Source: a virus (Duplodnaviria; Heunggongvirae; Uroviricota; Caudoviricetes). From it: a stretch of 8,336 bases of DNA. The position numbers and the translations under genes were made by a program. Positions 1 to 6,922 of this stretch are shown in pieces (position 1 is the first letter of the stretch; every line of letters begins with the position of its first letter). The notes below the pieces were generated by a model. That model was not told the origin of the DNA, ran no database searches, and was given only the letters and a program-made list of their open reading frames with translations. The stretch lies in IMG/VR virus record IMGVR_UViG_2778261169_000006; one strand, 5' to 3'.

Positions 1-3000
1 GAAAATCCGGATGAAGCCGGGCGTTACAGCATGGACGTTGAGTACGGTCAGTACAGCGTTATTCTGTTGGTGGAAGGCTTCCCGCCATCGCATGCCGGGA
101 CCATCACCGTGTATGAAGACTCACAACCGGGTACGCTGAATGATTTTCTCGGTGCCATGACGGAGGATGATGTCCATCCGGAGGCACTGCGCCGCTTTGA
201 ACTGATGGTGGAAGAAGTGGCGCGTAACGCGTCCGCGGTGGCACAGAACACGGCAGAGGCTGCTATTTCTGCCTCTCAGGCCGAAGAGTTCGCGAGCAAT
301 GCTTCTGAATATGCGTTGAATAAGTTCACGTTCTATAAAACGCCGAGCGATCCGGACGGTACAATTGCAGGCCTTGTTGCTACGACCAACGGACAGTCGT
401 TCCGCGTAGCGGAAGGTCCGGAAGCGACGGCGGCATTCAAAACCTACGAGAACCAGGATGGCGTAGCTGTGTTGCAGGCTTCTGAGCCAGGCACAGCGGC
501 TATAACTGGGACAATCCGCGAGTTTCCGACGCTGGCGGCGGCACAGGCAGACGCAGATGCTGGCAATATTCCTGTTGGGTCAACAGCTTATTACCGAGAC
601 TCCGATTACAAATATCTTGCAATAGAAGTTATCAATAATTCAGGGATATTATCTGCCACTGGCCGGGTAATGATTTCCAAGGGGTATATTGATGATCTTG
701 CATCAAGGGGATTAATCTCAACTGAGCTGGATGATGGTCTCGATATTGTTGATGTTGAATATGACCCAGTTTCCATGCGCATGTCTAAGTTCACTATGCG
801 TGATGGTCGTGTGTTTATCCCTTTGCTGCAATTATCTGAAAATGCAGTCACTGGAAATAATATTCAAAATGGCTCAGTAAGCTCAGAAAAACTTTCGCTG
901 GATGTTCAAAGTATTTTATCTCAGGAACTGGACCCTGATACTGGGTTTTCAGAAATCAACTACGATCCGGTAACCAGACGTATGTCTTCATATACCACAA
1001 CGGATGGACAGGTTTTTATTCCCTTGCTACAGGTCCCTGAGAATAGCGTCGGGAACTCACAACTTTCCACAGAAGTTCAGCAGGTCATTCCACTGGACCT
1101 TGACCCTGATACTGGTTATGTCAGCGTCGACTATGATCCGGTGACAAAGCGGATGTCCAGCTATGTGACGACAGATGGCGATGTATTTATTTCTCGTCTT
1201 CTGTTGGGTGATGACATCGTCGGCTTCTCAACGCTGACTGAAGATGTACAGAATAAAATTATTGCACACCCACAGGATGTTGTAGATGCCCGCCCGGATG
1301 CAACGCGCTCAACGCTCTCCGAAATCGCGGTGCGGACCAATGCACGCGACGGCTCTGCCTGGTCTCCGCTGCCGTCGCATGTGTGTAAGGCCGCATTCGG
1401 AATTAATGCGACCGGCACCGCGATTGAATACCGGCAGGCCAGCGGGCTGCTGTTCACCGGGAAAGCGCGGGCGGGCGTGTTTACACCAGGCGCGGTGCCA
1501 TCGCTGACGAAAAAAGGGCGGTTTCTCACCACCGCAGTTACCACGCCGACAGGGACGTTTGCTGTCGGTGATTACTACAGCTACGAGGCCTATAACACTA
1601 ACAGCAATCTGTCAGAAACGTTGCCCGGTACATGGGGAAGTCAGAGCCTTTACTGCGGCGATAATCTGGTGTGGGATGGCGCTCAGTTCGTTATTCAGCG
1701 CGGACCAGGCACTGGTGTTATAAAAATCGCGGAAAGCTGGTATGAAGTCACTGCTGCGGGAACATTTAACGGCATGACGCTACAGGCAGGGGACAAATTG
1801 CTCTATACAGGACTGCAAACTGCCGGTGGTGCATCCATGACTCCACGATGGGTATTGCTGTCATCAGCCAGTGATGCACTGGTTTACGCAGGGGAGTTTG
1901 CTCCTGCCTCTGGTTATCCTGCTAGTCCACTGCGTAATTCGGTTTATCAGGCATCCGCAGCGGGTACCATTTCAGGAAATAGTTTTTCTGCCGGAGATTA
2001 CGCTCTCTGGGATGGCTCCGCGTGGATTCGCATAGCAGGTCAGGCATCCGTTACTGTTGCTGCAGGCAGCTCTATCAGCCTACGTTGTAGTCAAAACTCT
2101 GACGAGTGGGAAATTCGGCGTTCTGATAAGAGCTCTGGCCCTGTCGGTGTAAGGCTGAAAGCTCAGGTGATGACGACAATCCGTAAATCTCTTGGGAGTA
2201 AGCTTCTCTTGATCGGGGATTCTCTTTTCGGCAGTGGAAATTCCGGCAACCAAATCCTTTCAGAGGTGAGCGTGCCCGGGGAGGTCCGCTCCTATGGCGG
2301 CTCTACTTCCGATCAGGTCCTCGGTATGTTAAAGCAGGAAATTCTTGTTAACGGGGATAATTATGCCGGACAGGTCATCTGCTTTTGGCACGGACAAAAT
2401 AACCAGCCGACAACTGATTTAAATGCTGCACAAATCAGGCAGGATTCTATTGAAATGGCTGCATTGGTTGGGGCCAGGGATGCCAGATATATATTCCTGA
2501 CAATTATGGGGCAAAGGACAGAGACATGGAACGGTTCAAGAATTGTTGTACAGCAGCATGAGGACCAGTACGCTAAAACGGGTGTTCTTTACGAGCTTGG
2601 AGAATGGTACAGAAGAATATTTCCAGGACGTTTCTTTAACGTATACCAAAATATGCTTTCTGCTGCTACTGACGCAATTGATCCTACTTTCCCGGGCATG
2701 ACCGAAAAACAAGTTGCTGTTACTTATGGCGTTCTACCCTGGTCATTTTTCAATGGCGGGTCATTTACAGGGTTCACAACAAACGACCTGGTATACAAAG
2801 GTACATGGAGTGACACAGTATTACCAACTGGTGGTAGTTCTATGGATTACTACATCAGGATAGGTGGCGGAACAGTTGGAAACATTATTTACAATAATGG
2901 CGGTGTATGGTCTGAAAAATCAATAGACCGGACACACCTTAGTAACACAGGTGGTCTTGCGCTTGCGAATGGTGGATCAGGTTTTTCCACAATATCATCC

Positions 3001-3045
3001 AGCGAAGGTCTTGCAGGAATGCTTAACAATAACTTTTTCTTTTGA
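1..3045 (+). CDS. Side tail fibre protein (5'-partial at window edge): lambdoid Stf-type N-terminal region, tandem repeats, C-terminal SGNH/GDSL esterase-like domain
   Basis: Reading frame is open from nt 1 (ENPDEAGRYS precedes the first ATG at 31), so the gene starts upstream of the window. N-terminal ENPDEAGRYSMDVEYGQYSVILLVEGFPPSHAGTITVYEDSQPGTLNDFL matches what I recall of the conserved N-terminus of lambda Stf / Rac StfR. Stop TGA at 3043-3045. Confidence 0.8.
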   Translation, partial: ENPDEAGRYSMDVEYGQYSVILLVEGFPPSHAGTITVYEDSQPGTLNDFLGAMTEDDVHPEALRRFELMVEEVARNASAVAQNTAEAAISASQAEEFASNASEYALNKFTFYKTPSDPDGTIAGLVATTNGQSFRVAEGPEATAAFKTYENQDGVAVLQASEPGTAAITGTIREFPTLAAAQADADAGNIPVGSTAYYRDSDYKYLAIEVINNSGILSATGRVMISKGYIDDLASRGLISTELDDGLDIVDVEYDPVSMRMSKFTMRDGRVFIPLLQLSENAVTGNNIQNGSVSSEKLSLDVQSILSQELDPDTGFSEINYDPVTRRMSSYTTTDGQVFIPLLQVPENSVGNSQLSTEVQQVIPLDLDPDTGYVSVDYDPVTKRMSSYVTTDGDVFISRLLLGDDIVGFSTLTEDVQNKIIAHPQDVVDARPDATRSTLSEIAVRTNARDGSAWSPLPSHVCKAAFGINATGTAIEYRQASGLLFTGKARAGVFTPGAVPSLTKKGRFLTTAVTTPTGTFAVGDYYSYEAYNTNSNLSETLPGTWGSQSLYCGDNLVWDGAQFVIQRGPGTGVIKIAESWYEVTAAGTFNGMTLQAGDKLLYTGLQTAGGASMTPRWVLLSSASDALVYAGEFAPASGYPASPLRNSVYQASAAGTISGNSFSAGDYALWDGSAWIRIAGQASVTVAAGSSISLRCSQNSDEWEIRRSDKSSGPVGVRLKAQVMTTIRKSLGSKLLLIGDSLFGSGNSGNQILSEVSVPGEVRSYGGSTSDQVLGMLKQEILVNGDNYAGQVICFWHGQNNQPTTDLNAAQIRQDSIEMAALVGARDARYIFLTIMGQRTETWNGSRIVVQQHEDQYAKTGVLYELGEWYRRIFPGRFFNVYQNMLSAATDAIDPTFPGMTEKQVAVTYGVLPWSFFNGGSFTGFTTNDLVYKGTWSDTVLPTGGSSMDYYIRIGGGTVGNIIYNNGGVWSEKSIDRTHLSNTGGLALANGGSGFSTISSSEGLAGMLNNNFFF
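727..1265 (+). repeat. Three tandem in-frame protein repeats (~57-67 aa each) inside the tail-fibre CDS
   Basis: Repeated blocks YDPVSMRMSKFTMRDGRVFIPLLQLSENAV / YDPVTRRMSSYTTTDGQVFIPLLQVPENSV / YDPVTKRMSSYVTTDGDVFISRLLLGDDIV, each preceded by LD(D/P)(G/D), starting near nt 727, 928 and 1099. Confidence 0.6.
2200..2950 (+). other. SGNH/GDSL hydrolase-like domain within the tail-fibre protein (putative receptor-modifying esterase or deacetylase)
   Basis: Motif blocks read in the translation: KLLLIGDSLFGSG (block I, Ser codon 2221-2223), SYGGSTSDQ (block II Gly), FWHGQNN (block III, GxN-like), IDRTHLSNTGG (block V DxxH, His codon 2935-2937). Assignment by motif only. Confidence 0.5.
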
Positions 3046-3055
3046 GGAGTAAAAT

Positions 3056-3883
3056 ATGGGCCGCGCCAATCCTTTATATGGAGCTAATTTTACAGATTCA
3101 AGAATGCCTATTTTTTATCCGTACCCTGGGTTAACTGATGGGTCTCTTGGGTTGCTGGATGCTTATGAAGTGGATGAAAATTTTAATTTATCAGCGACAG
3201 GTACTGATATATCGACAACGCCAAATTTAGCCGCGATTCCAGCCGCCACTTTAACTGGCGTATCGCAGGCTGATTTGGCCTTTAAGTATTCAAACACACT
3301 TGGTAGCACTGAAGTTAAGTTTGAGAGAACACCAAAGCTTGGTATTCATGGCATAGTCTCTCAGGTCAATCAGGTATCTGGCCACCTGGCCCGGTTCCGC
3401 TGCCCTGGCATCCTGCCGTACGTTGTTGCACATCAGAATGATCATCAGTTCGCAGTGTTTGTGCATCATCGTATTACTCGAGATAAGCCGTCATCGACGA
3501 ACCAGAACCCTGTAGAAGTGTTGATGTCGCATAACTCAGCTCCATCTAATAATAAGTTGCTGATTGCCAGTCTGGATGGAGGGTTGACGGGTAATCCAGC
3601 CCTGAAATCTCAAGCGTCAGCAAAAACAGGCACAGATATGGCTGTCGCAACTGCCTACTACGACCATATGGTTTGGGGGTCACCTAGCGGTTTCGGTACG
3701 CTACTGAACAATTTGTGTCGTTCATACGTCCTTTACAGATGGCATTTTATCGATCTCACTGCAGCAGGTATGACCATGGCAGAGGCCACGGCGTCTGAAC
3801 AGGATATCTTTAACAGGCGATTCAGTTCAGGCGGGAAGTACTATGGCGACACGATCCCAACAAATCCGTCTACCTTTCCGTAG
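3056..3883 (+). CDS. Hypothetical protein, 275 aa (possible tail-fibre accessory or assembly protein; function unknown)
   Basis: ATG at 3056 is preceded by GAGGAG (3044-3049), which overlaps the tail-fibre stop. AT-richer like the 3' part of the fibre gene. No recognisable motif; His-rich patch HQNDHQFAVFVHHR. No hydrophobic signal or transmembrane segment evident. Confidence 0.55.
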   Translation: MGRANPLYGANFTDSRMPIFYPYPGLTDGSLGLLDAYEVDENFNLSATGTDISTTPNLAAIPAATLTGVSQADLAFKYSNTLGSTEVKFERTPKLGIHGIVSQVNQVSGHLARFRCPGILPYVVAHQNDHQFAVFVHHRITRDKPSSTNQNPVEVLMSHNSAPSNNKLLIASLDGGLTGNPALKSQASAKTGTDMAVATAYYDHMVWGSPSGFGTLLNNLCRSYVLYRWHFIDLTAAGMTMAEATASEQDIFNRRFSSGGKYYGDTIPTNPSTFP

Positions 3884-6834: not shown

Positions 6835-6853
6835 TACACGACCTCGTTATTTC

Positions 6854-6890
6854 GGGTTCCCATAAAACGTGGGAACCTGTACGGGAACCT
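6854..6890. repeat. Cluster of GGGTTCCC / GGGAACCT 8-mers between int and dusA (candidate integrase-binding or att-associated sites)
   Basis: GGGTTCCC at 6854-6861 is the inverted complement of GGGAACC(C); direct copies of GGGAACCT at 6871-6878 and 6883-6890, each preceded by ACG. Three related sites within 37 bp, just upstream of the int start. Confidence 0.35.
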
Positions 6891-6922
6891 AACGCGAGAA
6901 AAATAGCCTGAAATGTTCAAAA

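What the first reader, a model, noticed from the sequence alone, without database searches (positions are those of the whole stretch)
1..6922. Tail-fibre genes lie within ~3 kb of the integrase at the same prophage end
Established: in lambda-type prophages, integration at attP (next to the int 3' end) places int and the tail-fibre/b-region at opposite ends. Seen: here the fibre module and int are adjacent, and the int 5' end faces the chromosomal junction. Inference: either attP lies on the 5' side of int in this element (a different genome organisation), or the element is a remnant that has lost its interior.
Basis: inference. Interest (0 to 1): 0.4.

Follow-up and report, generated by a model that had tools for sequence, protein, structure and literature searches.

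The report
dusA-integrating lambdoid prophage right end
The window is the right-hand end of a common E. coli lambda-like prophage that inserts into the dusA gene using an attachment site on the upstream side of its integrase gene, so integrase and tail-fibre genes end up together; this layout is real but already described.

Summary
A side tail-fibre gene (1-3045) and a truncated fibre-like ORF (4517-5161) lie 2.7 kb and 0.6 kb from the 3' end of a leftward tyrosine integrase gene (5737-6834). The integrase 5' end faces dusA.

In the virion genome of phage mEp460, attP lies in the 339-bp gap on the 5' side of int. It holds a phage copy of the first 104 nt of dusA, ending in the core ATGCTCGA. 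In the window, phage homology stops at that core (7019-7026), inside the dusA ORF and not at 6922.

The second alternative (remnant) does not explain the adjacency:
- Two draft contigs 100% identical to the window carry intact tape-measure, M, L, K, I, J, lom and stf genes just upstream.
- Complete 43-45 kb prophages with the same order exist at dusA in other E. coli.

The integrase is 363/364 identical to that of phage 1720a-02, whose dusA integration and Int-dependent excision are published. The family (dusA-associated integrases) was described in 2015. Matches to this int gene occur in 941 of 5426 complete E. coli genomes.

Verdict: ordinary and already known. The far (attL) end of this particular prophage was not seen.

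The parts
1..3045 (+). Side tail-fibre gene stf (codons 41-1054; the start lies 120 nt upstream of the window). The C-terminal part carries a GDS(L) esterase-like motif.
   Evidence: PF08400 at E 3e-39. Many PHROG tail-fibre families match. It is 1054 aa in the identical contigs L009/L010/L012. The strain 219 homologue is annotated as an SGNH/GDSL hydrolase.
3056..3883 (+). 275-aa ORF that travels with the fibre gene; function unknown.
   Evidence: phrog_18370 at E 8e-61, plus a weak match to the C-terminus of a minor tail protein. The exact protein sits next to stf in 24 contigs read.
3913..4505 (+). LexA-box-like palindrome (CTGTATATAAAAACAG at 3915), then a 79-aa ORF (3949-4188) and a UmuD'-like ORF (4188-4505). 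This is cargo.
   Evidence: phrog_3893 and phrog_3469 'UmuD-like' at E 1e-46. NCBIfam HumD matches below its cut-off. Palindrome found.
4517..5161 (+). 214-aa fibre-like, Gly-rich ORF, truncated relative to a 343-aa homologue.
   Evidence: PF21722 at E 1e-4. It matches only positions 7-161 of the 675-position phrog_6427. The homologue in L015 is 343 aa with a full Gly_rich_2 domain.
5427..5736 (-). dinI-like gene (5427-5675) with two LexA-box-like palindromes (5691, 5719) in its upstream region.
   Evidence: PF06183 at E 1e-19. phrog_189. Palindromes found.
5737..6834 (-). dusA-specific tyrosine integrase, 365 aa.
   Evidence: PF00589. R222, H306, R309, H332 and Y342 align with the catalytic residues of XerA. 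It is 363/364 identical to the phage 1720a-02 Int.
6835..6922 (.). int-dusA' spacer, which is the int-proximal arm of the att site. It holds three GGGAACC motifs within 35 bp (6855-6889), possibly arm-type Int sites.
   Evidence: The same spacer is present in mEp460 attP, with a fourth motif on the other arm. The function of the motifs is inferred.
6923..7026 (+). Phage-supplied first 104 nt of the dusA ORF (dusA'), ending in the crossover core ATGCTCGA (7019-7026).
   Evidence: Alignment of attR, attB, attL and attP. All phage matches end at 7026. A 7-base core is reported for 1720a-02 (PMC6328086).
7027..7960 (+). Chromosomal remainder of dusA, in frame with dusA'.
   Evidence: PF01207 at E 8e-105. 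99.4% identical to K-12.
8094..8336 (+). pspG, a chromosomal flank gene.
   Evidence: PF09583. Same neighbourhood as in K-12.

Best explanation
The window is the attR end of a lambdoid, mEp460/1720a-02-type siphophage integrated into the 5' end of E. coli dusA.

In the circular phage genome the order is late genes, J, lom, stf, cargo, dinI(-), int(-), attP, gp23, gp24, PrtN-type xis(-), then the early-left operon. attP therefore lies upstream (5') of int, in the gap between int and the rest of the early region. In lambda it lies downstream (3').

attP contains a phage copy of the dusA promoter-proximal region and the first 104 nt of its ORF. The Int protein is a tyrosine recombinase of the dusA-associated integrase family. 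It exchanges strands at a 7-8 bp core (ATGCTCGA) shared by attP and dusA codons 33-35.

Opening the circle there has three consequences:
- int, dinI and the fibre genes sit at the dusA-proximal end, with the int 5' end facing the junction.
- xis sits at the far end, separated from int.
- dusA is rebuilt as a phage/host hybrid ORF.

Shown here: gene order, the position of attP, the junction, the hybrid dusA and the intact tail genes upstream. Taken from the literature for a 99.7% identical Int: dusA integration and Int-dependent excision. Inferred: the arm-site role of the GGGAACC motifs, and independent regulation of int.
For: - attP, attB, attL and attR align around the core, with the expected swap of flanks.
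- The mEp460 virion map has int contiguous with stf and dinI, and the dusA look-alike lies in the 24401-24739 gap.
- The strain 219 prophage is complete: a dusA' pseudogene at attL, then gp23/24, PrtN xis, exo, cI, Q, lysis, terminase, head, tail, J, lom, stf, tfa, dinI, int and dusA. FCI1 shows the same gene order from int to the PrtN xis; its attL fragment was not located.
- The 1720a-02 record, deposited in prophage order, starts with int, dinI and fibre genes and ends with xis and gp23.
- The window Int is 363/364 identical to the 1720a-02 Int.
- PMC6328086 reports insertion 100 bp into dusA, a 7-base core, a phage-encoded dusA' in frame, and no attP formation in a delta-int mutant.
- PMC4482086 defines the dusA-associated integrase family and the replacement of the dusA 5' end.
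- Contigs L006 and L010 are 100% identical to the window. They add intact M, L, K, I, J, lom and the stf start upstream; L010 also shows the end of the tape-measure gene.
- Matches to int occur in 941 of 5426 complete E. coli genomes.
Against: - The attL end, head, lysis and immunity genes of this particular prophage were not seen. Only 6.9 kb upstream of the window could be read.
- The window's attR is not a clean product of exchange at the core. Phage-type bases stop about 40-55 nt before the core. So either the attP allele differs or later homologous exchange occurred within the 107-nt homology.
- No sigma-70-like promoter for int was found in the 6835-7026 region by the simple scan.
Confidence: 0.93

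Rival explanations
1. The element is a decayed remnant. An internal deletion removed the prophage interior and brought int next to the fibre genes.
For: Remnants of this prophage type exist. O157:H7 MB41-1 has an 11-kb element at dusA with a deletion from J to yfdQ. The 214-aa fibre-like ORF in the window is truncated. The far end of this prophage was not read.
Against: The same int-dinI-fibre order is found in packaged or induced phage genomes (mEp460, Lys8385Vzw) and in complete 43-45 kb prophages. Contigs identical to the window have intact M, L, K, I, J (1165 aa) and lom upstream, and L010 also has the end of the tape-measure gene. Even in the O157 remnant the int-fibre order is the native one.
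Confidence: 0.04
2. There are two elements in tandem. On this reading int and dinI belong to a separate small dusA island, and a lambdoid prophage without its own int lies next to it.
For: dusA-associated integrases also serve non-phage genomic islands (PMC4482086). A mosaic joint lies at 5238-5289 between the fibre-cargo module and the dinI-int module.
Against: Virion and circular phage records carry int, dinI and stf on one molecule, with attP beside int. No second att core or dusA fragment lies between the fibre genes and int in the window. No other integrase was seen in the complete relatives.
Confidence: 0.02
3. The layout is lambda-like, with attP 3' of int, but a local inversion of the int segment happened after integration.
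For: A Hin/Gin-type half-site-like sequence lies at 5212-5223. In sister prophages at another chromosomal site, a pin invertase gene follows the same fibre module.
Against: int has the same orientation relative to the late genes as in lambda. The Int lacks the lambda arm-binding domain and is a different family. The dusA look-alike and core lie on the 5' side of int in unintegrated phage DNA.
Confidence: 0.01

Closest known systems
Escherichia phage 1720a-02 (Stx2d-act phage, KF030445), studied as a C. rodentium lysogen (PMC6328086)
   Same: The Int is 363/364 identical. The prophage order is the same: int, dinI and fibre genes at the dusA-proximal end, with xis and gp23 at the other end. The core and the phage-encoded dusA' are the same.
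   Different: It carries stx2 and different fibre and cargo genes. Its dusA' is phage-type right up to the core, whereas the window's is mosaic.
Enterobacteria phage mEp460 (NC_019716) and Stx1 phage Lys8385Vzw (MT225100)
   Same: The dinI-int-attP segment is 97.7% identical over window 5238-7026. The stf N-terminus matches. The backbone is lambdoid and attP lies 5' of int.
   Different: The stf distal part and the cargo between stf and dinI are replaced. Window 255-5237 has no counterpart in mEp460.
dusA-associated integrase (DAI) elements of Proteobacteria (Farrugia et al. 2015, PMC4482086)
   Same: A tyrosine integrase gene lies next to the dusA 5' end. The element supplies a new dusA 5' end. 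Semi-conserved att repeats lie inside dusA.
   Different: That family spans many unrelated prophages and islands. This one is specifically a lambdoid siphophage. Sequence identity to the A. baumannii type member was not measured here.
Phage lambda and Lambdavirus PDP110P1
   Same: The late gene order is the same, with stf at the end of the late region, cargo after it and a leftward int next. PDP110P1 carries a related 79-aa, UmuD'-like and Gly-rich cargo module, 92% identical over window 3915-5144.
   Different: In lambda the attP core GCTTTTTTATACTAA lies between the cargo and the int 3' end. Its Int has the Arm-DNA-bind_1 domain. Integration therefore puts int and the fibres at opposite prophage ends, with int next to xis.

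Membership tests
dusA-associated integrase (DAI) elements | Tyrosine recombinase with the catalytic R, H-x-x-R, H and Y residues | tested here: met
   PF00589 at E 1e-20. R222, H306, R309, H332 and Y342 align to XerA structures.
dusA-associated integrase (DAI) elements | [quoted passage not shown] | tested here: met
   int at 5737-6834 (-) lies 88 bp from the dusA start at 6923. Phage genes lie on its 3' side.
dusA-associated integrase (DAI) elements | The element replaces the native dusA 5' end with its own in-frame copy | tested here: met
   Window 6923-7026 is a phage/host hybrid that reads in frame. Relative to K-12 dusA it carries 9 phage-type base changes, which change the N-terminal residues.
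dusA-associated integrase (DAI) elements | The element is flanked by semi-conserved att repeats inside dusA (attL and attR) | tested here: inconclusive
   attR with the core is present at 7019-7026. attL of this prophage lies outside the readable sequence. Both repeats were seen in the relatives, strain 219 and MB41-1.
dusA-associated integrase (DAI) elements | Int-dependent excision as a circle that regenerates attP and attB | not testable with these tools
   Published for 1720a-02, whose Int is 99.7% identical (PMC6328086).
Lambdoid siphophage (mEp460-like) | Lambda-type tail gene order: tape measure, M, L, K, I, J, lom, stf | tested here: met
   Contigs L006/L010, 100% identical to the window, show these genes intact upstream.
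Lambdoid siphophage (mEp460-like) | Head, terminase, lysis, Q, replication and cI modules present in this prophage | not tested
   Sequence more than 6.9 kb upstream of the window could not be fetched. These modules are present in strain 219, FCI1, mEp460 and 1720a-02.
Lambda-type int/att module | attP on the 3' side of int, and an Int with the lambda arm-binding N-domain | tested here: not met
   attP lies on the 5' side. There is no PF09003 hit, whereas the PDP110P1 Int has one.

The most novel reading that the evidence does not exclude
Because attP sits in the upstream region of int and splits int from xis on integration, int expression may be wired differently in the integrated and circular states. 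There would be no lambda-style sib retroregulation and no pL read-through in the prophage. In addition, the graded phage-to-host switch points in attR (window, O157 MB41-1, strain 219) may mean that the 107-nt dusA/dusA' homology is regularly remodelled by homologous recombination. That would let these phages track host dusA alleles. Neither idea was tested here, and neither was searched for in the literature for this phage group.
Probability: 0.3. Interest if true: 0.3.

Novelty: already known. Interest (0 to 1): 0.08.

Why it matters
It matters little as a discovery. It is a textbook-compatible variant of temperate phage layout that was described in 2015 for the integrase family and in 2019 for a near-identical lambdoid phage.

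It has practical value for annotation:
- For dusA-integrating lambdoid prophages the right boundary lies 104 nt inside the dusA ORF.
- In these prophages int and xis sit at opposite ends.
- int next to fibre genes should not be read as a sign of decay.

Tried and rejected
- No tRNA or tmRNA gene was found as a possible att target, and no Rfam family matched.
- The composition profile shows a lower-GC int region but adds nothing decisive.
- The sigma-70 promoter scan of 5100-7200 found nothing in the int-dusA spacer. Its two hits, in the dinI region, are fewer than the shuffles gave.
- NCBIfam gave no above-threshold family for any phage ORF.
- I considered walking upstream along the 201-kb contig that carries a 99.95% identical copy (L007). 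Covering about 39 kb would have needed several database-wide searches, so I did not do it. Complete genomes from the E. coli collection were used instead.
- The remnant, tandem-element and inversion explanations were examined and rejected (see rivals).
- The large protein homology, structure-prediction and metagenome tools were not used, because the identity of every part was settled by cheaper evidence.
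Full report
**What is in the window.** ORF listing and family searches give this order on the + strand:
- A side tail-fibre gene, open from base 1 to 3045. It matches Pfam PF08400 'prophage tail fibre N-terminal' only from profile position 51, so its start lies upstream of the window.
- A 275-aa ORF (3056-3883, phrog_18370).
- A 79-aa ORF (3949-4188).
- A UmuD'-like ORF (4188-4505).
- A 214-aa fibre-like, Gly-rich ORF (4517-5161).
- On the - strand, a dinI-like gene (5427-5675) and a tyrosine integrase (5737-6834).
- On the + strand, dusA (6923-7960) and pspG (8094-8336).

No tRNA gene and no Rfam family is present. Fibre genes end 2.7 kb (stf) and 0.6 kb (truncated fibre-like ORF) from the int 3' end, and the int 5' end faces the chromosome.

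**Where the junction really is.** I aligned the window with four sequences: the empty site of K-12 (L003), attL and attR of the complete prophage of E. coli strain 219 (L004, L002), and the int-proximal gap of the packaged phage mEp460 (L001).
- mEp460 carries, just upstream of its int start, a look-alike of the dusA start region: 90 of 107 nt identical to K-12. It ends in ATGCTCGA, and unrelated phage sequence follows.
- Strain 219 attL is native dusA up to ATGCTCGA, followed by that same phage sequence.
- Strain 219 attR is phage-type up to ATGCTCGA, followed by native dusA.
- In the window, homology to all phage records stops at 7026, and the core is at 7019-7026.

The prophage therefore ends 104 nt inside the dusA ORF, not at 6922. 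The first 35 codons of the dusA ORF lie left of this junction. Their first ~48 nt are phage-type and the rest is identical to native dusA, which explains the altered N-terminal residues.

**Position of attP and the resulting order.** In mEp460 virion DNA the order is J, lom, stf (19086-22694), dinI(-), int (23303-24400, -), a 339-bp gap with dusA' and the core at 24585-24592, gp23(+), gp24(+), a PrtN-type excisionase(-), exo, and the rest of the early region. attP is thus on the 5' side of int.
- Opening this circle at the core predicts exactly the strain 219 prophage. That prophage runs yjbM, the dusA' fragment, gp23/24, PrtN xis, exo, cI, Q, lysis, terminase, head, tail, J, lom, stf, tfa, dinI, int, then complete dusA. 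It is about 45 kb.
- Strain FCI1 has the same gene order over about 43 kb.
- The 1720a-02 record is deposited in prophage order. It begins with int, dinI and fibre genes and ends with xis and gp23.

**Contrast with lambda.** Lambdavirus PDP110P1 carries a related 79-aa, UmuD'-like and Gly-rich cargo module, 92% identical over window 3915-5144. There it is followed by the lambda core GCTTTTTTATACTAA (L015 7937-7951), and 74 bp later by the 3' end of a lambda-type int that has the arm-binding domain. int orientation is the same in both phage types. What differs is the side of int on which attP lies. That alone decides whether int ends up with the fibres or at the opposite prophage end.

**Is this prophage a remnant?** Two NCBI draft contigs (L006, L010) are 100% identical to the window over all 8336 nt, and a third (L007) differs at 4 positions.
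- Upstream they show intact M, L, K, I, J (1165 aa), lom and the 1054-aa stf. L007 and L010 also show the end of the tape-measure gene.
- Nothing further upstream could be read, so the head, lysis, immunity and attL parts of this very prophage remain unverified.
- Remnants of the type do occur. O157:H7 MB41-1 retains 11 kb with a J-to-yfdQ deletion and both att ends. Its int-fibre order is the native one.

Deletion is therefore not the explanation for the adjacency.

**Identity and mechanism.**
- The Int has the tyrosine recombinase catalytic residues R222, H306, R309, H332 and Y342.
- It is 363/364 identical to the Int of phage 1720a-02.
- For 1720a-02, PMC6328086 reports insertion 100 bp into dusA, a seven-base core shared by attP, attB, attL and attR, a phage-encoded dusA' in frame with the host gene, and loss of attP formation in a delta-int mutant.
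- PMC4482086 defined the dusA-associated integrase family in over 200 genomes. It reports the integrase next to the dusA 5' end, replacement of that end by island sequence, and 21-bp semi-conserved att repeats.
- PMC7946995 notes dusA as the insertion site of Lys8385Vzw and of Stx2k prophages.
- Matches to the int gene occur in 941 of 5426 complete E. coli genomes, and are full-length in 728.

The mechanism is ordinary site-specific recombination by a known integrase at a known site.

Two points are my inference. First, the three GGGAACC motifs at 6855-6889, with a fourth on the other arm of mEp460 attP, may be arm-type sites. Second, int, now separated from xis and from pL, is probably regulated on its own.

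**Rivals.** Three alternatives were examined:
- A tandem arrangement of a small dusA island plus an int-less prophage. This is excluded because packaged genomes carry int, dinI and stf on one molecule with attP beside int, and no extra dusA fragment lies between the fibres and int.
- A post-integration inversion. This is excluded by the attP structure in unintegrated DNA.
- The remnant reading, dealt with above.

**Verdict.** The organisation is already described and very common in E. coli. Interest is low.

**Side observations.** These are listed separately: a mosaic attR, LexA-box-like palindromes in front of the UmuD'-like and dinI-like cargo, an esterase-like motif in the fibre tip, and sharing of the whole fibre-cargo module with a prophage at another chromosomal site.

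Noticed in passing
window 6920-7026: The phage-derived dusA' at attR is mosaic. Phage-type bases occur only in the first ~48 nt, and the ~40-55 nt before the core are identical to native K-12 dusA. O157:H7 MB41-1 switches about 25 nt before the core. Strains 219 and RM8385 are phage-type right up to it. This suggests either different attP alleles or homologous exchange within the 107-nt homology.
   Followed up: partly
window 3915-3930, 5691-5706, 5719-5734: There are three CTG-N10-CAG palindromes with AT-rich centres that resemble LexA boxes. One lies just upstream of the 79-aa/UmuD'-like gene pair, and two lie between the int stop and the dinI-like start. The cargo between the fibres and int may be SOS-regulated. 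About two such palindromes are expected by chance in 8.3 kb, so position is the main argument.
   Followed up: no
window ~2100-3045 (stf C-terminal third): The fibre C-terminus contains 'LLLIGDSLFGSG', a GDS(L)-type esterase block. RefSeq annotates the strain 219 homologue as an SGNH/GDSL hydrolase, but Pfam gave no hit at E 0.01 or better. It may be a receptor-deacetylating fibre tip.
   Followed up: no
window 1-5289; L005, L008, L009, L011, L012: The whole fibre-cargo block is 99.9% identical to the end of a different lambdoid prophage at the ydfI/Qin-side locus, where a pin-type invertase gene follows it. A Hin/Gin-type half-site-like AAACCTTGGTTC lies at 5212-5223. The joint to the mEp460-like dinI-int module lies in the shared stretch 5238-5289.
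   Followed up: partly
window 4517-5161; L015 6605-7636: The 214-aa Gly-rich fibre-like ORF is truncated compared with a 343-aa homologue in Lambdavirus PDP110P1. Nucleotide similarity to PDP110P1 ends at window 5144, just before the ORF's stop codon.
   Followed up: partly
L018 (NZ_CP039834.1, E. coli O157:H7 MB41-1) 1261-12116: This is an 11-kb remnant of the same prophage type at dusA. It retains int, dinI, three DUF1076 (NleG-like) effector genes, stf, lom, a J fragment, early-left fragments, PrtN xis and the attL dusA' pseudogene.
   Followed up: no
L017 (E. coli FCI1) attR: The host dusA allele has the core variant ATGCTTGA instead of ATGCTCGA, yet it carries a full prophage of this type. 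The core may tolerate a mismatch, or it may have mutated after integration.
   Followed up: no
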